From the NCBI RefSeq assembly GCF_964194155.1, contig NC_135896.1:25110001-25174000 (forward strand): DNA of 64,000 bases, read 5' to 3'. Positions within the stretch are counted from its first letter, which is position 1; every line of letters starts with the position of its first letter. This document shows, piece by piece, positions 34,737 to 60,944 of the stretch. The position numbers and the translations under genes are program-made. Source of the DNA: Cetorhinus maximus (taxonomy: Eukaryota). The notes under the pieces are model-generated. The model was not told the DNA's origin, searched no databases, and worked only from the letters and a program-made list of their open reading frames with translations.

Positions 34737-35150
34737 CAGGTATCAGCTATAGCTGTTGTAGTATTCTTGCCTCTGCGTCAGAGGTCATGGGTTCAAGCCC
34801 CACTCCAGAAACTGGAGCACAAAATCTAGGCTGTCACTTCATGCAGTATTAGTGTTGCAAAAATGGAGGTGCTATCTTTCACATACTACTTTAAAACTTG
34901 GCATGGTCTGTCCTCTCAGGTGGATGCAAAAGATCCCCTGGCACTATTCGAAGAGTTTTCCCTGGAGTCCTGGTCAATATCTCTCAAAAAAAAAAATTAT
35001 CTGGTCATTATCTCATTGCTGTTTATGGGACCTTGCTGTGTGCAATTTGGATTGCTTATCCTACATTACAACAGTGACGATGTTTCAAAAGTACTTAATA
35101 GGATGTAGTGTTTTGGGGCATCTTGAGGTCATGAAAAACACTATATAAAT
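34737..35150 (+). mobile_element. Near full-length Deu-domain tRNA SINE (SacSINE1/AmnSINE-like)
   Basis: tRNA head (B box GGTTCAAGCCC), central CAGGTGGATGCAAAAGATCCC...TTGCTGTTTATGGGACCTTGCTGTG, tail ACTATATAAAT; partial copies at 43190-43360, 44330-44490, 55450-55730. Confidence 0.7.
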
Positions 35151-39806: not shown

Positions 39807-40502
39807 CGTTATGACCACAGCAGATGTTAATTGCTGAGCAAACCAAATCCCAGAGGGAAACTTGGCTTACAGGCCATATCCTTTTTCTTTATATTCTTAA
39901 AATGAGAAGAGAACATACTGATCTCAGCAGCAAGAAGTCCTGTAACACTTTTGTGATTTTAAAATTTAAAAATAAAAGCTTTATTAACAAGAAGAAAACT
40001 TAAGCACACAAGATTACACTTACATAGTTAAAATTAAATTTTACAAAACATTCCCTCAAAAGACTCCCTACTTGGTCAGACCCACAAGTAAACACCTTCC
40101 AGGCAATACTCCCTCATAGAAGTTAACTATAAAACCTTTCATGTTTTTATTTTGTCTCTGCTTTCAGGTCAATAAAATGTAACATACCCTCTTTTGTTTA
40201 CCCATGGAATTGCTGTAAGATGCAAAAATATTTTTTATCACCTGACTTCCCTTTGATATTCAAACAAACTCAACTTTTCTAAAAATGCAAACGCTAGATC
40301 CAACCTATTTACTTGTACTTCAAGCCACCATAATATTTCATTACAAATGCACAACCTAACGCCTCTATCGTTTCATGTCTTGAACCTCCCAGACAATCTG
40401 TCTCTAGTAGCCTTTCCCCAGCTTAGTTAAAATATTTACAAATACAGAGCCTTCTTCACAGAATAACACCATATTCTCCAACAAATATTTTTAAAAATAA
40501 CA
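39807..40502. mobile_element. Possible solo LTR interrupting a CR1 tail
   Basis: CGTTAT...ATAACA termini (TGTTAT...ATAACA with one change); CR1-like sequence on both sides; no clean TSD. Confidence 0.35.
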
Positions 40503-40688
40503 TCCACTCTCACATAATCTATATTCCCTCCTTATGGATCACCCAATCACTGGAGATAGTCTGTTCCTAACCCTCACAGAATAACACCATATTCTCCAAA
40601 AATATTTTTTAAAATAACATCCATTCTCACATAATCTATATCCCCTCCTTATGAATCACCCAATCACTGGAAATAGTCTGTTCCTAAC
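40456..40688. repeat. Tandem duplication, period 118 bp, two copies
   Basis: TCACAGAATAACACCATATTCTCCAA...ATAGTCTGTTCCTAAC at 40456 and 40574. Confidence 0.9.
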
Positions 40689-43366: not shown

Positions 43367-43552
43367 ATTGCCATTCTAGTTCAGTCATTTTCCACATTAA
43401 TTGTGAATGAATACCACCTTCATGCAAGTTCTTATAACTTACAAACCTGTGCACAGCTTTTGGCACCTGTTTACTTGGAGTAAAAATCATTGGTATAATA
43501 TTTAGACCAAATTATCAGAACCTCCATATGACCATAGCAAGTGGGTAACTAT
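43367..43552 (+). repeat. Local duplication; paralog at 44573-45069 carries the tandem SINE insertion
   Basis: Long shared blocks such as AAAAATCATTGGTATAATATTTAGACCAAATTATCAGAACCTCCATATGACCATAGCAA. Confidence 0.9.
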
Positions 43553-44633
43553 ATCTGTTCTAGATCCCTCAAAGCTGTTGAAATAGCCTCTGTTTATCAT
43601 CTTCTAAAAAGACCTGATCTGATGGACCATGTAGGCCTTTTTTCTGCCCATATTTATGAGACCTGGAGGCTCACGGCTCCCTACCCTAGAAAATAGTGCA
43701 GAATGAAGAGAAACAAATATTTCAATGGGAGTATCGTGACATTATCTGAAAAACTTCTCTCATTTTGGATTCTTTGGTTACCTCATCATATGGATGATCA
43801 TATGGATTCTGTATTCCAGTTTTTCCTATTGTGTCCCTCGTAGTGAATTTGAGCTATGATAGATTGAATGGCCTTTTAGCTTTGACTTCTTTGCAAGAGT
43901 TTTACTTTGTATGTGGTGGTTTTTATTTCCTGTTTCAGTTTTGAAAGTCAACTTTTGTATTAGGACACATTTATTGGAACTAGCCAAATATTTAATGCTT
44001 TGGCTAAGCTATCATGATGCTAATATTTTACTGTTGAAGATATTATCATAGCAGAAAATGAACTATGAGTTATTTTGCATTGTATTAGCCATCCAATGTG
44101 TGCCTGGTTGCACAGATAATACAAATATAAACTAATATACTATAATAATGTAATTGTAATATTGCCAGCAGTATCAGTCTACCCAGTTGAAATACATTTA
44201 GCTGCCAAATCACACCAAATAGCCAAAGTTCCTAAAGATTGATGTTTGAGTTCAGTGTAAAAATCTTCTTCAAATGAGAAGACCAAGGAGTTCTTCCAAA
44301 ATTCCTTTTGTAACTAGTCCCCATAAAAATATAGATTAACTGGTCATTCATCTAACTGGTGGATGTGGATTCTTTCTAAACAGGAAATGACTTCCACGGT
44401 TACTCATATTAAGTCACTGCCCTTCAAGGTCATTAATTTGTGTTTGTTGCATTTGAGATATTTTGGATAGAAATGATACTTGTGGAAATGTAATTTTTTT
44501 TGATTTGGTAATGAATTACAAACCACAAAGCAGTAAAGAAAAAAATTCCAATTCTAATGATGTAATTTACTCATTGCCATTCTAATTCAGTCATTTTCCA
44601 CATTAATTGTGAATGAAGTGAATGAGTACCACC

Positions 44634-44961
44634 TTCATATAGGTTCTAGAGGTGTCAGCTGTGGCTCAGTTCATAGCACCCTCGCCTTTGAATAAGAGGG
44701 TTGTGGGTTCATGTCCCACTCCCGGAAACCGAGAACTGCGATTGTACTCGAAAGAGTTGCAATCTGTGACTGTTGATAACTCGAAAGAGTTTCATATAGG
44801 TTCTAGAGATGTCAGCTGTGGCTCAGTTCATAGCACCCTTGCCTTTGAATCAGAGGGTTGTGGGTTCATGTCCCACTCCCGGAAACCAAGAACTGTGATT
44901 GTACTCGAAAGAGTTGCAATCTGTGACTGTTGATAACTCGAAAGAGTTTCATATAGGTTCT
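44634..44961 (+). mobile_element. Two 143-bp tRNA-headed SINEs in tandem with a 14-bp target sequence present three times
   Basis: TTCATATAGGTTCT at 44634, 44791 and 44948; units 44648-44790 and 44805-44947. Confidence 0.9.
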
Positions 44962-45157
44962 TATAACTAACGAACCTGTGCACCTGTTTACTTGAAGTAA
45001 AAATCATTGGTATAATATTTAGACCAAATTATCAGAACCTCCATATGACCATAGCAAATGGGTAGCTATGCCCATGTAAGTAGGAACACAGCACCTTTTC
45101 ATCAGGAATTTCTGTATTAAACAGTTGTTTTTGTTTTTCTTTCCTCTCCTCAGCATA

Positions 45158-47160: not shown

Positions 47161-47225
47161 ACCCCACTCCTCCTCTCCCCCTCCCCCCCCCCCCCCCCCC
47201 CCCCCCCACCTCCCCCCTCCCTCCT
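47161..47225. repeat. Poly-C/pyrimidine tract
   Basis: Run of about 25 C flanked by CCT words. Confidence 0.9.
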
Positions 47226-48953
47226 GGTTTAAGTAATTTTACCACCAGGGAGGAGATTTGTCACAACTAATTTTAACAATTCACTATGGTAACTTGGACC
47301 ACATGGCCTTGCACACAAGCAGTGGCAAATTATAAATTGCAATGGGTACAAACTCAAGAGGATCTTGATTTGCTCAATCATTGGCACTGTGGCAGATGCA
47401 ATTTAATACAGAGAAATGTAAGGTTCTGTGATTTGATAGAGTTAGTATGGATTATATATTAAATTGGAATGTACTTGAGGCCTTGGAACAGGAGAGAGAT
47501 CTTGGGGTTTTAATGAGAAGGTCAATAAAACCATCAGCACAATGTTCCCAGGTTACTTAAAAAAAGAAAATAAACCATTGGATGCAAAGAAAGGGTTGTG
47601 ACATATAAATCCAGAGAAGCTATTTGCAAACTGTATTTGGCCCTGTCAACATTACTGCCGCCTTCTGGCTCAATCATTTCAGGTTTTTCATTTTGTGCAT
47701 ATACTTTAATATGCTTCTTGCATCTTTTTCTTATCTAATCAGGGTTTGCTAATAAAACACCTTCTTTACTGTCTATTGCTGTTGTTTTCAGTTCTTTATG
47801 CTGAATGCCACTAATCTCCTTTGCTTTTGCAAACATAAGGTCTACCTTTCCTAGTTGATCCAATCTTTCGAGTACATCTCACTGCTCTTCTAACCACTGT
47901 TCTTGTGTTTTTTCTGTTTCTCGTCTTAGCTCATTGTTGAAGTATCTGTATTTCAGCTCGCCTTTGTCAGTATTGATATTCTTCCATTTTCTCCGTTCTT
48001 CCATCTTTCCATCTTCCATCACTGCAGCCGCAACCCATGGTTTCTTGATCCTTTTTCTTCTTAAAATGGGTCTGCTGTTTGCGCCTCCATCCTTGACAGA
48101 TTCTTTAATCTGTTTATATTGCTCATTCATGCTGGTGGTATCCTTATTGTTTCTAGCTAGTACTTTGTTTATTTCATTTACAAATTCTTCTTTTAATTAT
48201 TTCAGCTTCTCCAGATTCCAGTGTTTTCTGCATATTCCACCTTGGATCTTCTTCAGTCAGACTGTTTCCATTTTTTCAGGATTATGATCAGATTTTGTGT
48301 TGGTTCCCAGCTGAGCTTTCTAGTTCTTGACACTATTCCTGTATCATTGTCTCATCATTATGTAGTCTAGTTGAAATCTTCCTGTATCGCCAAACATTTT
48401 CAATGTGTATCAACCATGTATTTGTTATCATAAGTCTTGTTCTTCTACAAAAATCTACCAGAATTTGACGTTGCTCATTTCTTTCTCTAGTCCATATGGT
48501 CCTACTTCTTTGTCATCTCTTTCTTCTCCAACAACACTGTCCCAATCTCCCATTAACAATTACATACCTCTTTCCACTCCTGTTCAATTAGTTTTTCAAT
48601 TCTATCATGTCCTGATGAAATAAGAAAAAGGTGGAAGAAGGATATTGAAGAACTGTATGGGGGGGGGAAAAAAGAAAAACTCAAAGATTGAACTAGAAGA
48701 AGAGAGAAATGTTGACACTGATTTCATTGGACCAGAAATACTAGAGAGTGAGATAAGAGCAACAATAAATGAGATAAAAACTGGAAAAGCGGCTGGAACA
48801 GATGAAATACCTGCAACGCCAATTAAAAACATGGGAAACAATGTAAAATCAGTGGTTACTAAGCTTTGCAAAGATACAAATTTACTTATTAAGAGAATGG
48901 CTGGAGTACTTCATGCAGACAATAATGATCACCTTTAGAAAGAAGCCAGAGGC

Positions 48954-51690
48954 TGGACCAGCAGTATGCTATTGCACCTACCCCAGTATTATACAAACAG
49001 CATCTGGCTCTACAGACTGAATTTGACCTTCTTTCCACTAAACAAACAGAAAAGTTTATACTTGAATCATGTGGTACATTTTCTGAGCATGGTGAAAGAT
49101 CCGGTAGGCTCCTGGCTCACCAACTTCGCCAGTCTGCTTCCTCTCAACTTCTTACTGAAATCACCACTCCAACAAGGTCAACCACCACCGATCATCAGGC
49201 GATCAATGATCAATTCAAACTTTTTTATTCCACTCTTTATACCTCAGACTCCTATTCAGATCCTGGTTTATTTCACAATTTTATTGATAATATGGACATC
49301 CCATCTCAAACATCTGACTCTGTGAATGCGTTAGAAGTATCCTTTTCCCAAGATGAAACACTAAAGGCAATTAAATCCATGCAAAGTAATAAGGCACCAG
49401 GGCCTGATGGATTTCCAATATAATTTTATTTTAAAAAAACTATCACAACTTTCTCCATTATAATTGTCACTGTTTTTGGAATGCTTTCTCTCTGAAATGC
49501 TCCGTCCTATGCTGCATGAGGCATCTTTGTCTATTCTTTTAACAAGGGATAGGGATCCTCTGCATTGCAGTTCATACCAGTCTATTTCCCTTCTAAATGT
49601 GGATGTTAAGGTACTAGCTAAAGCCTTAGCCCACTGTCTTGAACCTGTCCTTCCATCTATTATATCTCCTGACCAGACAGGTTTCACACAGGACAGGCAA
49701 TCCTTCTCTAATTTAAGGCGTCTTTTCAATATTATTTATACACATTCAACTACTCCTCTCCCTGAGATTCTTATAATTATGGATGCAGAAAAGGCTTTTG
49801 ATAGAGTGGAATCGGACTACCTTTTCTTCACTCTTTGAAAATTTGGATTTGGACCCATTTTTATAAAATGGATAAAACTATTGTATTCCTCACCAGTTAC
49901 TTCAGTACGTACAAATAATATCCACTCTAAACTCTTTGACTTCCACCAAGGTACTAGAGAGGGCTGTCCCCTTTCTTCCCCCGCTACCTTTCACTATTGC
50001 TATTGAGCCCCTGACAATTTCACTGCAGACCTGTGGAGATTTACAGGGTGTTATACGGATTGGAGTCAAGCAGACACTCTCTCTTTATGCTGAAGACCTT
50101 CTTTACATCATGATCTGGCCTAATCTCGCCCATATATTTTCTCTAATCTTGAGTGATTTGGTCATATTTCAGGTTTTAAAATTAATTTGCAAAAGAGTGA
50201 AATTTTTCCTATTAAATTCTATTGCAAAGAGTTACCTTCTTCCCTCCCCTTCAAGGCCTCAGTAAACAGTTTTAAATATTTAGGAATTTTAGTTACTCGA
50301 TCCCTTGGAGACTATTTTAAGCTCAACTTTGACCCTTTATTGGAACATATGAAGCAGGATTTAGGACATTGGTCTAGCTTACCCCTTTCTTTAGTTGGTT
50401 GTATAAATTCTGTAAAGGTGAATATTTTGCCAAAATTTCTATACTTATTTCAGTGCATCCCATTGTTTATTCACAAGCGTTTTTTTGTTGCAATAGACCA
50501 ATTAATTTCTTCCTTTATTTGGAACAAGAAAACACCCAGAATTCATAAAGTTTTTCTACAAAATCCCAAGCATTTAGGTGGTTTGGCACTACCAAATTTT
50601 CAGTTTTATTATTGGTCTGCTAATATCCATAATTCTTTTTGCCTTCATTTTTGACCCTCTCTCTCAGAAATATGATCTGCCGTGCACACACTTCTTTCGC
50701 TATTTACAAATCAGTGATTTTGTGCACAAAAAAATCACCCAGTTTCCTTTATTGCCCCCCCAAATCACCAATAGATATTATGTTAAAATTAAATCCTTTT
50801 GTTAAGGGGTTCATTTCCAAATTGTATTCTCTAATGTTTTCACTACACTACCCTTTGTTTTCTACCATAAAAACTCTTTGGGAGCAAGATTTTTACTCAG
50901 ACTTATCAGAAGATAACTGGAAGTCTATTCTCCCATTTGTACATCCCTCATCCGTATGTGCAAGGCATGAGTTGCTACAATTTAAAATCTTATGTCACAC
51001 CCCTCTATCCAAAGTGAAATTATCTAAGATTTATCCAAATTTTGATCCAACCTGTGATAAATGTCATACTGCCCCAGCTTCTCTAATTCATATGTACTGG
51101 TCATGTCCTAAATTGGCTTTGGTTTGGACAAAAACTTTTACACCACTCTCACATATTTTTAGTGGCAACATTGAACCTCCTCCATTACAGCACACTTTGG
51201 AGTGGAACCAAATGGCATCCCTCTTACAAAAATGCACTCGCCTTTTCAACATTATTGGCTAGACATATTATTCTATTAAATTGGAAACAGACTGCCCCAC
51301 CTTCTTTTACTAATTGGCTACGTGATCTTATTCAGAATCTTGAAAATAAAATACACTATAAGGGGTTCCACTGATGGATTTAATATAGCTTGTCAACCTT
51401 TCTTAGATTACTTTGAGGAGCTACAGCTCTCTACTTTCATATAACTGAGCCTAATTAGGTTGTATGTATTATATTAGGTGAAACTATATCTGACCTGTGA
51501 TTGTTGTTGACTTTCTTATTATCTAATTTTTGGGGTTTAGGAGGTTTTTTTTTCCTTTTCTTCCTCTGACTTTTCCTTTCTTTCTCTTCCAAATGTAAGT
51601 GTATTGAATTATTGTGGTGCTGTAAGCTTCTTTTGTACATTTATTCATTATGACTATTGTTAAATTTTTTTTAAAATAAAGAATTAACAA
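48954..51690 (+). mobile_element. 5'-truncated L1-clade LINE (ORF2 RT and C-terminal Cys domain, frameshifted) with TSD
   Basis: YQSISLLNVDVKVLAKALA, PDQTGF, DAEKAFDRVE, FKYLGI, CDKC...HMYWSC; AATAAA near 51675; TSD AGA(A/G)AGAAGCCAGAGGC at 48937-48953 and 51691-51707. Confidence 0.9.
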
Positions 51691-53355: not shown

Positions 53356-54345
53356 ATTTAGGAAGCATTATGTCTGCAGATGGAAGATGCAACAAAGAAA
53401 TAAGAACAAGAATAGCAATGGGAACGGTCATACTTATCAGGAGATGGTTGTTAATTGGAAAGCAGAATTAAAAACTCAAGAAGTGACTTATAAAGAGTTT
53501 GAAGTGGAGTATTGTTTTGGATGGTTGTCATATTTGGACTTTATGGAAAGAGGAAAGCAACTTGCTAAATAGCTTTGAAATGTGGGTTTGGAGGAGAATG
53601 AAAAGAATCAGTTGGAGAGAAAAAGTAACAAATGATGTGCTGAGAAGAGTGAACGAAAAAAGACGTTTGCTGAATGTAATTAGGAACAAACAGAGTTTGG
53701 GTAGAGTACATCTTAACAGGAAACAGACTTGTAAGAGACGTTAGGGATGGAAGATTTCAAGAAAAAAGGGGAATAGGTTGGAAGAGAATATCAATGCTGG
53801 ATGGCTTGAAAATTGAAGGAATTTATTGGCAAATTAAAAGACTGGCACAGGACAGAGACACATGGAAAGACTACTATGAGCCTGCTACAAGGATCTGCTT
53901 TTGGGCAGAGCACATATGATGATGATGATGATGATTTGAATCTGGTGAAACCACACCTGCAGCAGTGCATGCAGTTTTGGTCTCCCTATTTTAAAAAGGA
54001 TATTCAATTTATTGGAGAGAATACAGAGGCTATGTGGTTGTCCTAGAATTTAAGAGAATGAGGAAAGATTACTGGTGAGGAGAAGCATGTTGAAGCTAAT
54101 CTAAATGTTTATTAACTAGATGATGATCTGCACAGGGGAATTTTATACCATGTGACTTGTCAGTGTGCAATGGAAAGATTTTCCCGGAATCAGAATAGTT
54201 GAGTCAAAAGCTGCAGATGAACTTCTGCCTTAACTTTGAATAGTGAGGAAAGTGAGTGATGTGATAATAAAATGTAATATCTATTTAGCAACTTCTGTAA
54301 TTGAAATGTTGTATATTTTAATTAATCACATTCACTTTCTTTTAG

Positions 54346-54703: not shown

Positions 54704-56651
54704 TCTTACATTGAATTAACTATTGTTTGAATCTTTCAAGTTTTAAGTTTAAAATTGTAAAATGTTAACCGTAGGACATGGATTTGTATTCGTTAAGTCC
54801 TTTTTTATTCTTTTGCCCTGGGAATTGACAACGGGAAATATATAAACATTTCACTCAATTCCAATGATCACTGTTTGCACTGGAGTATATTTCATTTGTG
54901 TGTCTACAATTTTGAGTTGTTGATATTCCTCCTGAACCTGACTGATATCTTTGTAAATCCTGGAGTGGAATTTATGTTGCAATATTTCAATAACTTAATT
55001 GCTTTTACTGAATTGTTCGCAAGCTTTTGAGTAAGTTCATTTTAAATTTAAAATGAAAACAGAAAATGCTGGAAATATTTAGCAGGGCAGGCAGTGTTAT
55101 AATGGCACATGCTCACTGCATAAATCCAAATTAAATGCACCCTAGTATCATAGTGCTATGATAGCTGGTTTCCCATCTGCCATTTCTTCCCCTCCCACCA
55201 TAAATAAATATGAGACTCAGCGCTGAAAACCATGGCAGCCTGACATCCCCTTCAATGCGAAGAAGACCAAGTATTCCGGAGTGGACATCTTATCAGCTAC
55301 TTGTGTGGGCTGAACACTAAATACCTTTAACTTATACAAAGCAGGTGGCTTGCTTTTTTTGTTGTTCTTCTTTTCCCCTGTGATTTTCTCTCACGTTCGC
55401 TTGAAGATTATTTCATGGACCCCGATAAAGTCTCTACAAAACCCCAGTTTGAGAATCACTGTCTTAAATGACAGTGTCCCACAAACAGCAATGTGAAAAT
55501 GACTGAATTTTCTATTTTTATTGATGTTGGTTAGGGCCAGGATATCGGAAGAAAGCCCTTGCTCTTCAAAAAGATTCCAACTGAGAGGGGCCTTGGTTTA
55601 ACATCTCATCTGAAAGATGGTAGCTCCAACAGGGCAGCACTGGAGTGTCAGTCTAGATTTTGTGTTCAAGTCTCTAGAATGGCACTTAAACCCACAGCCT
55701 TTTGATTCAGAGGCAAGGGTGCTATCACTTAACCCTTAATTTTAGGATTTAGACCTAAAAATATGTTCTTAAAAAGAATCAAAATGTTTTTTCCTCCATT
55801 TAGATGATGAGTTAATTGCTGAAAAGTGATTGACAGGAAGACTAGCCATTTATGAAGGACATTGATTGCAAACCCTGATCCTTTCCAGCTTCTTGTCAAG
55901 AAATGCAAAAATTGCTGGCTGGATTTTGTAGTTCAAAATAAAAAGCAAAGCTCTATCAAAGCAGCCATCTGTTTATGTAGCATTCCAAAGAGGCAATGTC
56001 ACAAATAATGTACTTACTCATTTATGTAGCAGTGATAAATTTTTTTTACCCCACATTTCCACTGGCCCGTGTCCAGTTCTGCCAATGCCCCAATTCCATC
56101 TTCCATGCTGCTCAACTTCAGGATGCCCACTCTATTGCTGAAAAAATTCCAGGATCTTTGTTGCAGCACTGTTGAATCCAGGAGCAGCACTCCTCTATGC
56201 TACCAAAGCTTAGGAGTGCACCCAATGTTGCACAGTTGCATGGCACTGCTCTCCTGTACTGCTGATCAGGAAGCTAACTGGAACATTTGATTTAATCTGT
56301 TATCATAAATCAGTGGCTCAAAGCACATTGCACATTAGATAGCAGAACACATCAGTAGAACAAAACCATGGGGTATCAATCATGTAGTGTGCATTTGTTT
56401 TGTTTTATTCTTAGGGTGAGGGTGACACTTGTGTTTTTATTGCCCAGCTCTAGTTTCTATGAGAAGGTGGCAGTGGGTCTTATTAAACTGCTGCAATCTA
56501 TGTGCTGATGGTGTTCTCATGGCTGTGTTATATGTAGAGAATTTCAGGACTTTGGCCCAGTGGCGATGACAGCACAGTGGTAAATGCCCAAGTCGAAATG
56601 GTGTAAGACCTGAAAGGAGACTCGTTAATTGTCTTGCTGCTATTGTCCTCC

Positions 56652-56990
56652 TTGGTGGTAGAGATTGAGGTGTCAGCTGTGGCTCAGTTCATAGCACCCT
56701 CGCCTTTGAATCAGAGGGTTGTGGGTTCATGTCCCACTCCCGGAAACCAAGAACTGTGATTGTACTCAAAAGAGTTGCAATCTGTAACTGTTGATAACTC
56801 GAAAGAATTTTTTTTTTTGGTGATAGAGATTGAGGTGTCAGCTGTGGCTCAGTTCATAGCACCCTTGCCTTTGAATCAGAGGGTTGTGGGTTCATGTCCC
56901 ACTCCCGGAAAACCAAGAACTGTGATTGTACTCGAAAGAGTTGCAATCTGTGACTGTGGATAACTCGAAAGAGTTTGGTGGTAGAGATTG
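56652..56990 (+). mobile_element. Second tandem pair of the 143-bp SINE with a different 16-bp target sequence present three times
   Basis: TTGGTG(G/A)TAGAGATTG at 56652, 56817 and 56975; lies within an old LINE tail (56400-57050). Confidence 0.9.
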
Positions 56991-58709
56991 TTGGACTGGG
57001 AGGGGCTGTCTAAGCAAGCTTGGATGAGCTTGTAAGGCATTTTCTGTAATGACTTTGGAGCAACATTTTTATGTCATCAATAAAATGGGAAGTTCCTATG
57101 TCAATATTTGCCTGTTATGCTTTTAAATATAAATTATTGCGCATATGGGAAGCTGCCATCATGCTTCTATCCTGTGGCATTCAGCCATCGCACAGATATC
57201 TAGGGACCACGGGCAAGTTGATGGGTAGACCTTGGGGAATGATGTCTACCAGCCCCATTGAATAGGAACATTGCCATTGAGTCCAAGCAGCAACTAGTCA
57301 GGCAATGGAGAGGATCATGGGGGTTCTAGAAAATCAAATCTAATGCCTGGACAAGTCAGTGTGTTCTCCAGAATTATCTGAGGGTGACAAGAATAATTGT
57401 GGCCTGCTGTGCACTTGAGAATGTTGCCTAATGAGAAGTTCTCAGTCAGGACATACTGGGCAAGGAGCCCATGACACTAAAAAAACCCCTAAACCAAAGA
57501 GCCTGGAATCATCGATGATGTCTGCTCACTGCTCCAGGCTCCCAGGGCTGTCGCAAGGCAGCTTGTTGCACACGTGTTCAGCACTTATTGCATCTACCTA
57601 CAAAACACAGCTTGCCCACCTTTGCCCTTGTCCTCAAACAAAACAAAGTGTGAAAGCAATGCTCACACAAACAGATGACAATGGATTTGTGCTCTTATTC
57701 CCCACAGCAATATACCAACTTTCATCAGTGGAGTGAACTCAGAACCATCTGCCCGAACTATTCTTTGTGACTGCAATTTCATTGATTAATGAAGCAGAGA
57801 ATGAAAGTGGTAATTCAACTTTAGTATAGCAATGAACAGAACACAAACAGGCTTCCATGAATGACAAGGCACAAAATAAGTGAACTTTCAACCTGAACAG
57901 GAAATTGCAAGTCCTCGAGCATTCCCCATAGGGCTGCATACATGCTCAAAAGAATAGGTACACAAACTACAAAATTAACTGCAAGATATAAAGTATTCTC
58001 CACAGGACTGTATTAGTACACATCGAACCTTAGTAAAGAAATTTCCAAAGACAAACAGGATTGCATCAGTGGCTCAGTACAGAATAAGCATACTTATTCA
58101 TTCAGGCATTAACTGCAAGTTTATACATTTGCTTCAAAGAATCCTGGAAGCCCCATTAATCAGAGACAGGAAACTGATTCAAGGTGTCCTCCAATCCATC
58201 CCCCCAACTCCACCAGAGTTGCACTTTATATTCCAGGCTAACCTTTTCCCACTCTTAATTATCTCTCCCGCCCAGCCCCTGTATCCCTCCACACCATTCG
58301 ATATCATGCATGCACAAGGCCACCCCTTGAAAACATCAGTATTTGCTTCCATCACTACATGTGGCAGCAAGTCCCATTTTCTCACCACTGTATACAAAGA
58401 AAATCCTCCTAAATGATTTACCTATCTGTTAATGGCTATCATACGTATGCACCATTGTTCTGAAAAGCTGAGGTCCCAGCAGATCTCTTAATTGGGAAGA
58501 TGGGTGGCACGGTTATGGGTTGGGAGAGATGGGGGCAATCGGCTGGGTGGGAGAGATTGAGGGGGATAGAGATGGAGAGTTGAGAAATGGAGGTCCAAGA
58601 TGAGGAGAGGTAGGCATAGAACTATAGTTATATTATTCCAGCATCCGCAGTATTTTGCTTTTATATTAATATAGTTATGTCCTGCCAGTTTGAGACAATA
58701 CCCATTATA

Positions 58710-59129: not shown

Positions 59130-59870
59130 AACAAGGGGGCGGGAGGGGGGGCAATGGTCAAAGTAAAAATCCGCCGGCAGGAGAACACAGCGACGTAAAC
59201 GGGATTGAAGAAATTCCAGGTCCGCGTGAATGCTTTTGTTTAAATAAATAGGTCTCCATAGAGATGTTGCACTCTGTTTCTGGCTGCAGTCCATGTCCAA
59301 CTACCAGTAAACCGGGTGGGGGAGGAGAGCTGCCTCCCGCTGCGACTGTTTACGTCGCTGGGACGGCAGTATGTGTGCGCGCATGCGTGTGTGCCCCGGC
59401 CGTTGATTGGTTCGTGGGTTTGACCCCCGCCGGGTCACGCCGCACAGGATGATGGTCCATTATCCATCATGGAGGCGATATTTCACGAGAAAGTGAGTTG
59501 ATGCGGCGATTACTGTTTAAAATGGCCGTGGCGGCGGCTCGCCGGGCCCGGGAAGCAGCGGCGGGAGAGGCCGCCGTGGCGTTTGGCGTCGAGTTGCTCA
59601 AACCTCCCCGTCTTCCTCCTCCGGGGCTGCGGTGAAGCGGCTGTGGGGCGGGGAGTTTCACAGCCGCTGGCTGCCAGCGCCACAGGGTTCCCCACCCTTG
59701 GCCTGAGGCCGGAGCGGCTGCCCCCGTACATTCACCGCTCATAACTGGGCTCTGAGTCGCGGTGCAATAATCACATTGAATTCCGCTTTTAAAGGGCTGC
59801 CCTCGAGATGTGTCGCACCTTGGGAGGGCGATTAATATCCCGGCCCGACATCTAAAGAGAAACGTCCCAA
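59130..59870 (+). promoter_or_regulatory. ATXN3 CpG island/promoter: TGTTTAC forkhead-type motif (59347-59353), NRF1-like GCGCATGCGT (59379-59388), reverse CCAAT (59406-59410), YY1-like AAAATGGCCG near 59519
   Basis: High CpG density around exon 1; motifs read directly, function inferred. Confidence 0.75.
59469..59492 (+). CDS. ATXN3: ATXN3 (ataxin-3) exon 1 coding part, MEAIFHEK; rest of gene beyond the window
   Basis: ATG GAG GCG ATA TTT CAC GAG AAA followed by a GTGAGT donor inside a CpG island; matches the 8-codon first exon (human MESIFHEK) and the NDUFB1-ATXN3 neighbourhood. Confidence 0.92.
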
Positions 59871-60944
59871 AAAAAAACCATCCTATCAGGCAGGAGAGGA
59901 GTGCTCAAAGTTAGCAAGTGATGTTTGTGTAAATCCTCCGAAGTTGATCTTCTCAGTTCGTTGAACGGTTAAGTAAATCGTTTGTATCAGCTTCTGACTT
60001 CCCGTTTCTGATCCCACACACTTCTGATGGTTCTCGTGGAGCACGCATAGGAAAAGAGTTTTTGCGTAGTGCAACTTTAATTACTGCACGTTGTGTGACT
60101 CTCAAAGACGACGTACAGGGCACCACTTGAGCGTGGAAAAGTTGGACGTTTAGCCTGAAAGACACTACTGCACTATATAAAAGCACAGTTGTCCTGTTGT
60201 GGTTGTATTACAATCTTGGTAAAATCGCTGCTAATATGATAGTGTTTTACTTCATGATGTTGATTATTCATTAACAGTGCAGAAGTTCAACTATCTTTAC
60301 GATAGGCTATTGAATAGGTAGAATCGATGCTCAATACAGTAAAATGTTGAGTAGGAAGAAGGGGAGGCTACTCGACGCCAAACGCCACAGCGGCCTCTCC
60401 CGTTAACTCTGTTTTTCTCTCCACAGATGCTGTTAGACCTGAGTTTTTCCAGCATTTCTTGTTTTTGTTCCAGTAAAATGTTGGTTGTGACAACCTTACA
60501 TATGTAGTTTCCCATATAGCTATGGACATTGGAATTGTAATGGAAATACAAAAATAAAGACAGAATGGATAACTTAAAATGGGGACTGAATTACAATTGC
60601 TTCTTGATCCAACTATCTCTTGCCTTATAACTTCATTTGAAGACAGCACTTTGCCTTGACTCCATATAAAACGTCACAGGAAGTTACGAGTTTATAGTGT
60701 TTGTGATTAATTGTAAATTTCTGGTTGATTATACAGTACAGTTATTTTTGTGTTTTGTATACCTACAGTAAACATCTGAATTTGCCATTATATCTGGTAA
60801 TGTAAGGCTTATGTAAGCCTCTGACTCTTGTGCACAACAATATTGTAAATAGACTGGCTAAGTTTGTGGGTGAATCCCTTGTACAAATGCTATATCCATA
60901 TAATTACTAATGTTGTGTTTATATGGTAATTACTGTTTTATCTA

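What the first reader, a model, noticed from the sequence alone, without database searches (positions are those of the whole stretch)
56652..56990. Independent second locus with the same triplicated-target dimer
Seen: a different 16-mer, TTGGTG(G/A)TAGAGATTG, at 56652, 56817 and 56975 around two copies of the same SINE. Both family loci I can see in this window are dimers. The two units differ (first ends GAA+T11, second GAG+T3, plus several substitutions), which argues against an assembly echo. The first unit at both loci reads CCCTCGCC and the second at both loci reads CCCTTGCC; this may be parallel CpG decay or a position-specific variant. Inference: the structure is a family property rather than an accident.
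Basis: partly seen in the sequence, partly recalled or inferred. Interest (0 to 1): 0.72.

Follow-up and report, generated by a model that had tools for sequence, protein, structure and literature searches.

The report
SINE inserted twice at one site
Two slightly different copies of a short jumping element sit head to tail between three copies of a 16-base target that two related species carry only once, likely because the copying enzyme inserted a second RNA before leaving the site; this pattern is already described in mammals and clams, and most copies of this family appear to be single.

Summary
Real. The 16-mer lies at 56652, 56817 and 56975 around two ~143-nt SINE units. Two related species carry the empty site with one 16-mer, so this is target-unit-target-unit-target, the known 'target site triplication'. 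The middle target is locus DNA, which excludes a ready-made dimeric RNA. Reads of a second sample of the species show that tail-to-head junctions recur but are a minority: about 1 in 10 unit ends (model range 3.5-20%). So dimers are a family tendency, not the family form. The CCCTCGCC/CCCTTGCC pattern is a CpG site and fits chance. The units of each dimer share no private substitution, and B1 and B2 each carry a different variant that is common family-wide. I favour two RNAs inserted in one integration event (0.45) over DNA duplication through the target copies (0.30) or later re-insertion (0.17). The partner LINE was not found and no genome was available for the decisive tree. Known kind, new member; useful as a test bed for an open mechanism.

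The parts
56652..56667 (+). Target copy 1 (16 nt); its last G doubles as the first base of the element
   Evidence: relatives join 56651 to 56975 with 16 letters fitting both sides; family reads begin at 56667
56667..56816 (+). SINE unit B1: tRNA-like head (to ~56739), two-hairpin tail, variant end with A at 56807 and a long T-run
56817..56832 (+). Target copy 2 (middle), one G>A change; locus DNA, not element DNA
   Evidence: depth 11.6 at 56821 in the same-species contigs
56832..56974 (+). SINE unit B2, family-majority 3' end, one extra A at ~56909
56838..56910 (+). tRNA-like head with imperfect A- and B-box motifs (56845-56855, 56889-56899); shared with an older SINE family of the window
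   Evidence: Rfam tRNA 15 bits, E 4.1, below the gathering score of 29; ARAGORN 0 genes; alignment to older heads; box consensus from established knowledge
56924..56975 (+). Tail: two repeats, each a predicted hairpin with a GAAA loop (56924-56948, 56962-56975); the element ends at the base of the second, a short form at the base of the inner stem of the first (56942)
   Evidence: fold z -3.31, 3 of 200 shuffles as good; 0 of 19 pairs covary in 4 copies; short-form joints
56975..56990 (+). Target copy 3
44634..44961 (+). Sister locus A: 14-nt target at 44634, 44791, 44948 around units A1 (44648-44790) and A2 (44805-44947)
43367..43552 (+). Older local paralogue of the locus A flanks without the insertion (in-window empty site)

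Best explanation
Two copies of a young tRNA-headed SINE lie head to tail between three copies of their 16-base target, likely because one integration event reverse-transcribed two different RNA molecules in a row. Inferred steps: a partner LINE protein (not identified) nicks the bottom strand at the left edge of the target, whose AA end pairs with the RNA's terminal U's, and copies from the base of the 3' hairpin (unit B2). It cuts the top strand 14-16 nt downstream, jumps from the RNA 5' end onto the freed top-strand overhang and copies it. That rebuilds the same 3' end that primed the first round. In roughly one event in ten this end would leave the top strand and prime a second RNA (unit B1) before the jump is repeated and the gap sealed. 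The result is target-unit-target-unit-target with identical boundaries, units of equal age and independent templates. Shown: anatomy, empty site, recurrence of tail-to-head junctions. Inferred: everything about the enzyme and the single event.
For: Empty orthologous site in 2 of 2 relatives. No substitution is shared by the two units of a locus and absent from the other locus; 5 differences within each locus, 2-6 between loci; a copy made at insertion time is favoured 5- to 23-fold over a DNA duplication at a uniform later time. B1 carries non-G at 56807, seen in about 8-12% of family depth in contigs, against 0.02% and 0.3% for two private changes; B2 carries a 4-A run seen in up to 16% of reads; likelihood ratio 4-99 for separate templates if these are inherited variants. 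Each locus repeats its own target length (14 and 16) exactly for both units. Junction share of 3.5-20% exceeds random re-use, which gives at most 0.06% for a TT preference and 1.4% for a 4-base preference. 3 of the 12 spacer rows shown (of 84) join a whole tail to a whole head across 14-15 nt of other DNA; 6 join 3'-shortened units to heads across 1-10 letters, which target misalignment does not explain. Template jumping onto the top strand with melting of the target is a published model (PMC2912911; PMC6895275); 'machinery stays in place and recruits a second RNA' was proposed for mammalian triplications (PMC1687206).
Against: Both A units have an extra A at the 5' junction and both B units lack it, which favours copying of one junction about 4- to 5-fold. 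The two 'family variants' may be recurrent mutation rather than inherited variants; only the G share at 56807 was printed, so A is inferred. T-runs at SINE ends lengthen after insertion in mammals (PMC8466645), so T11 against T3 is weak. A duplication during or just after integration also gives no shared mutations. Plain tandem and local duplications exist in this window (40456-40688; 43367-43552). For junctions at other loci the flanks were not seen, so their spacers are not shown to be targets, and spacer letters of the raw-read junctions were among the hidden rows. Only two loci were analysed.
Confidence: 0.45

Rival explanations
1. DNA-level tandem duplication: after a normal insertion, the 14-16-nt target copies misalign (unequal exchange, or slippage during second-strand synthesis or repair of the fresh insertion) and the unit plus one target is copied.
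For: Gives exact boundaries automatically. The 5' junction is the same within each locus (ratio 4-5). Proposed for bivalve and Alu cases (PMC11481361 passage citing Lee 2015). Ordinary tandem duplication occurs in the window.
Against: No shared private substitution in 2 of 2 dimers, so it would have to be early (95% bound about half the copy's age). B1 and B2 differ at two positions that vary family-wide and in the whole 3' junction. Junctions with 1-10-letter spacers after shortened tails (6 of 12 rows shown) need another route.
Confidence: 0.3
2. Two separate insertions at different times: the target, or the unit's own GAGTT end next to it, is a preferred site and is cut again at the same two positions.
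For: Explains different templates. Accepted for P-element, jockey and R1 tandems (10.1101/158386) and offered for snoRNA retroposons (PMC1687206). Tail-to-tail-module joints (10 and 9 reads) could be insertions at unit ends. Targets begin with TT at both loci.
Against: Needs about 6-base specificity at 100,000 copies to reach 8%, while flank letters behind unit ends agree only 0.34-0.46 in 3 of 4 rows shown. The second cut must reproduce 14 nt at one locus and 16 at the other. Units look equally old (2-3 departures each).
Confidence: 0.17
3. Assembly echo: one insertion written twice by the assembler.
For: No single contig spans the whole locus, the same-species run laid may be the source sample, and the second sample has no depth on the flanks.
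Against: The units and the middle target differ. A contig at single-copy depth covers the middle target; the left-flank contig ends at 56688, exactly where targets 1 and 2 would merge in a 31-mer graph (weak, a large family could end it there too). Raw reads of another sample hold at least 106 tail-to-head junctions.
Confidence: 0.04
4. A dimeric or ordered-template element (Alu-like dimer, or two subfamilies used in fixed order), as hinted by the C/T pattern.
For: First units C and second units T at both loci; A2 and B2 differ at only 2 sites.
Against: The spacer is each locus's own target (empty sites), which a dimeric RNA cannot supply. The site is a CpG with a 6-34% chance pattern. B1 has a strong T-run terminator between the units. 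Most copies are monomers.
Confidence: 0.04

Closest known systems
Target site triplication of mammalian retroposons (snoRNA retroposons plus SINE, Weber 2006, PMC1687206; Alu, Lee et al. 2015 Gene 561:283, not read)
   Same: Two retroposed units between three target copies, empty orthologous site, 13-16-nt target; same two mechanisms left open.
   Different: No poly(A) tail and no TT/AAAA site here: T-ended unit with a hairpin tail, target starting TT. Both units are of one family, and junctions may reach about 10% of ends.
Bivalve SINE arrays TSD-(SINE-TSD)n in Scapharca broughtonii (PMC11481361)
   Same: Same arrangement; about 3% of high-scoring SINEs in tandem-like structures.
   Different: There units are highly similar, truncated at one position, up to 15 long and ascribed to unequal recombination; here whole, equally diverged units differ at family-variable sites.
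Double-insertion TE dimers in Drosophila (P-element, jockey, R1; McGurk and Barbash, 10.1101/158386)
   Same: Target duplication preserved inside the junction; proposed seed for satellites.
   Different: Those are ascribed to separate insertions, helped by site preference; no strong preference is visible here.
Head-to-tail multimers of B2, Dip and Ves SINEs (PMC8466645)
   Same: A sizeable share of copies in multimers: 11.5% (Ves), 40% (B2), 49% (Dip), so the rate here is not unprecedented.
   Different: Those have A-tails that offer L1 sites; the passages read do not report a triplicated target.
RTE-mobilised SINEs such as hagfish SINE1-1_EBu (PMC7245038)
   Same: Young vertebrate SINE, swapped tail, about 17-bp targets, weak target preference; RTE-like remnants lie in this window (family name recalled).
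   Different: No tail match: motif absent from that paper's 2 supplements held as text; the in-window remnant ends in GAT repeats.

Membership tests
Target site triplication (retroposon) | Three copies of one target flank two retroposed units | tested here: met
Target site triplication (retroposon) | Orthologous empty site holds the target once | tested here: met
   one contig in each of 2 relatives skips 323 nt with 16 letters fitting both sides; paralogue for locus A
Target site triplication (retroposon) | L1-type site and A-tail, as in the mammalian cases | tested here: not met
   unit ends in a hairpin and T's; targets start TT
tRNA-derived SINE | tRNA-like head with A and B boxes | tested here: inconclusive
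   Rfam tRNA 15 bits, E 4.1; ARAGORN none; head aligns to older SINE heads
tRNA-derived SINE | Short, non-coding, dispersed at high copy with variable-length targets | tested here: met
   8233 reads laid with unlike flanks, 0 depth on the unique flanks; contig depth ceiling about 154,000 copies; targets of 14 and 16 nt
tRNA-derived SINE | Transcribed by RNA polymerase III | not testable with these tools
   no RNA run was laid
tRNA-derived SINE | 3' tail shared with a partner LINE | tested here: inconclusive
   no partner in the window or in the collections; relatives hold the first half of the tail at up to 400-640 single-copy depths
Dimeric SINE (Alu-type, amplified as a dimer) | Fixed linker between monomers, one target pair around the dimer | tested here: not met
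   the linker is each locus's own target
Shark DeuSINE/V-SINE families (SacSINE1, HE1) | Conserved Deu or V body after the head | tested here: inconclusive
   the unit leaves the older in-window family right after the head; naming that older family is recalled, no consensus library was available
RTE-mobilised SINE | Tail homologous to RTE 5' and 3' ends | tested here: inconclusive
   target length fits; no sequence match found

The most novel reading that the evidence does not exclude
The partner LINE of this family routinely re-primes on the target copy it has just made, so that about one insertion in ten delivers two different RNAs with an exactly triplicated target. The family would then be a natural record, in thousands of loci, that the reverse transcriptase itself copies the target duplication by jumping to the top strand, and a source of instant SINE tandems.
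Probability: 0.35. Interest if true: 0.7.

Novelty: new member of a known kind. Interest (0 to 1): 0.4.

Why it matters
The structure has a name and precedents, so it is not new in kind. What is unsettled since 2006 is whether the two insertions are simultaneous, separate, or a DNA duplication (PMC1687206). A young family with at least thousands of copies, locus-specific 14-16-nt targets, several common variants and perhaps 10% dimers would allow that to be decided by counting. If the single-event model holds, it supports the idea that the reverse transcriptase writes the target duplication, a step still poorly understood (PMC6895275), and shows how SINE tandems and satellites can start.

Tried and rejected
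No genome was held, so the proposed tree of first against second units could not be built. Tail patterns found nothing in viral contigs, metagenomes or prokaryote genomes; a 17-mer gave 80 metagenome loci, all chance (mean upstream identity 25% in the 77 measurable). No RNA holder was listed. Rfam gave no ribozyme or other family above threshold for 56500-57100; a hammerhead reading of the GAAA hairpins was considered from memory and dropped because the core does not fit. The tail-like hit at 47864-47889 lies inside a decayed LINE coding stretch and is taken as chance. The third evenly spaced triple at 53543 is unrelated. The tail motif gave 1 unrelated paper. Three look-ups in earlier findings returned nothing. 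Position-specific variant: rejected as unsupported. Lee et al. 2015 could not be read, so its counts and mechanism are not used.

Full report
Observation. The finding is in the sequence as described. The 16-mer stands at 56652, 56817 and 56975, with chance expectation 0.07 for the pattern at two mismatches. Between the copies lie two units of about 143 nt. A second locus 12 kb upstream has the same form with a 14-mer. These four units are the only full-length members in the window. Pairwise substitutions are 5 (A1-A2), 5 (B1-B2), and 6, 5, 5, 2 between loci. No internal position sorts by locus; one sorts by position, and it is a CpG.

Anatomy. The first ~73 nt are tRNA-like (weak Rfam match; none by ARAGORN) and align with the heads of an older SINE family at 34738 and 55677. 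After the head the unit leaves that family and carries a ~68-nt tail of two similar repeats, each folding into a predicted hairpin with a GAAA loop (z -3.31 for the B2 tail, -1.43 for the mutated B1 tail; no covariation among 4 copies). The element ends at the base of the last hairpin and overlaps the target's opening TT. The window holds decayed LINEs (RVT_1 hit in 1 of 5 frames scanned). That the host is likely a cartilaginous fish, and the names of its older repeats, are recalled resemblances and were not tested.

Other sequence data. No genome was held. I laid four runs on 56350-57300 at 88% likeness: contigs of the same species (X1, possibly the source sample), raw capture reads of another sample of that species (X21), and contigs of two relatives (X13, X5). 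Each relative has one contig that joins 56651 to 56975 with 16 letters fitting either side: the empty site. Their flanks differ by 3.1-3.5%, so the insertion postdates that split. In X1 both flanks are identical to the window and a contig at depth 11.6 covers the middle target, as for single-copy flanks. No contig spans the whole locus. Relatives hold only the first half of the tail, with an A at 56777 that turns a predicted U-G pair into U-A; their heads run on into the older SINE body.

How common are dimers? X21 gave 8233 laid reads and no depth on the unique flanks, so they come from other loci. Of 33 joint rows 15 were shown; four of them join the tail end to the head start (53, 35, 11 and 7 reads). 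About 70 more reads are laid through the middle target with 10 or more differences. The four 3' loose-end rows shown hold 389, 449, 396 and 1067 reads (634 loose-end rows over all runs were hidden). Uncorrected, 176 of 2477 reads at unit ends are junctions (7%); corrected for detection, 8-19%. A depth-based estimate from the 5' side, with denominators I read off the depth bins, gives 3.5-20%. It is a capture library, so loci are unevenly weighted. Most copies are therefore monomers. Two dimers among two loci would have a chance of roughly 0.1-2%; selection of the window may explain it, but this remains unexplained. Of 84 spacer rows 12 were shown, all from X1: 3 join whole tail to whole head across 14-15 nt, 2 join a tail to a 5'-truncated unit, 1 joins tail to tail module, 6 join a 3'-shortened unit to a head across 1-10 letters. 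Flanks of those loci were not seen.

Mechanism. The middle spacer is locus DNA, so a ready-made dimeric RNA is out. Random re-use of a site gives at most 1.4% unless the enzyme reads about six bases. That leaves DNA duplication through the targets or two RNAs in one event. Neither dimer has a shared private change, which dates any duplication close to insertion (ratio 5-23). B1 and B2 differ at two positions that vary across the family: non-G at 56807 is 8-12% of X1 depth while two private changes are 0.02% and 0.3%, and the 4-A run is in up to 16% of X21 reads. This favours separate templates if the variants are inherited, and says nothing if they are mutation hot spots. Against it, the 5' junction is the same within each locus (ratio 4-5 for copying), and T-runs can lengthen in place (PMC8466645). 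My model: after first-strand synthesis the enzyme jumps to the top-strand overhang and copies it, which rebuilds the primer end; that end sometimes primes a second RNA. The jump and target melting are published models; the re-priming step is my inference, close to Weber's suggestion. Odds: one event 0.45, duplication 0.30, later insertion 0.17, artefact 0.04, ordered templates 0.04.

The C/T pattern. At 56866, 261 of 847 reads laid on B2 keep T, at least 5% of the family; a neighbouring CpG is decayed in 19%. With 4-8 CpG sites the chance of one position-sorted site is 6-34%. It carries no weight.

What is known. 'Target site triplication' occurs in 3 papers of the library; six other wordings added only one of the same papers. 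Seen as passages: PMC11481361, 10.1101/158386, PMC8466645, PMC10702118, PMC2912911, PMC6895275, PMC7245038 (its 2 supplements searched for one motif), PMC5814959, PMC4824008, PMC12840619, PMC8501958, 10.64898/2026.06.26.733778. PMC1687206: passages and one whole section. PMC3747384: passages and part 1 of its tables, which list T-ended plant SINEs and three shark SINE pairs. Lee et al. 2015 and El-Sawy and Deininger 2005: reference-list entries only. Searches for this family found no description, but Repbase and Dfam were not searchable and figures are not held, so it may be named already. Weber's supplementary figures, unread, hold the mammalian examples.

Verdict. A real, young SINE double insertion of a known structural kind. 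Interest 0.4; up to 0.7 if the single-event model is confirmed genome-wide.

Noticed in passing
window 43367-43552 vs 44573-45069: An older local duplication 1.2-1.5 kb apart; only the second copy holds the locus A dimer, giving an in-window empty site.
   Followed up: yes
window 56738-56976 (joints): Tail modules joined directly behind tails (10 and 9 reads in X21; one X1 contig at depth 74) and short units ending at the first hairpin (7 and 11 junction reads). May point to a partner LINE with a tandem 3' module.
   Followed up: partly
window ~56745-56781 (runs X13 and X5): Two relatives hold the first tail repeat alone at up to 400-640 times single-copy depth: a candidate trace of the partner or ancestor.
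   Followed up: partly
window 56939 to 56667 joint (X1): One head-to-tail junction has depth 143, about 12 single-copy depths: possibly an expanded array or a duplicated dimer.
   Followed up: no
window 59562-59597 and 60367-60402: A 36-nt piece of the nearby GC-rich island is copied in inverted orientation (94%) and fused to a repeat at 60402 that recurs at 826, 7681 and 15208: looks like a templated capture at an insertion junction.
   Followed up: no
window 40456-40688: Plain 117-bp tandem duplication, 94% identical, with no SINE inside.
   Followed up: partly
window 48929-51262 (+): Decayed LINE with a reverse transcriptase match (PF00078, E 1.2e-10); L1-like by recalled motifs.
   Followed up: partly
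window 53480-53936 (+) and about 47700-48400 (-): Decayed coding remnants that read like RTE-clade LINEs (recalled motifs); the first ends in GAT repeats, not in the hairpin tail.
   Followed up: partly
window 47177-47221: A 45-nt C-rich run.
   Followed up: no
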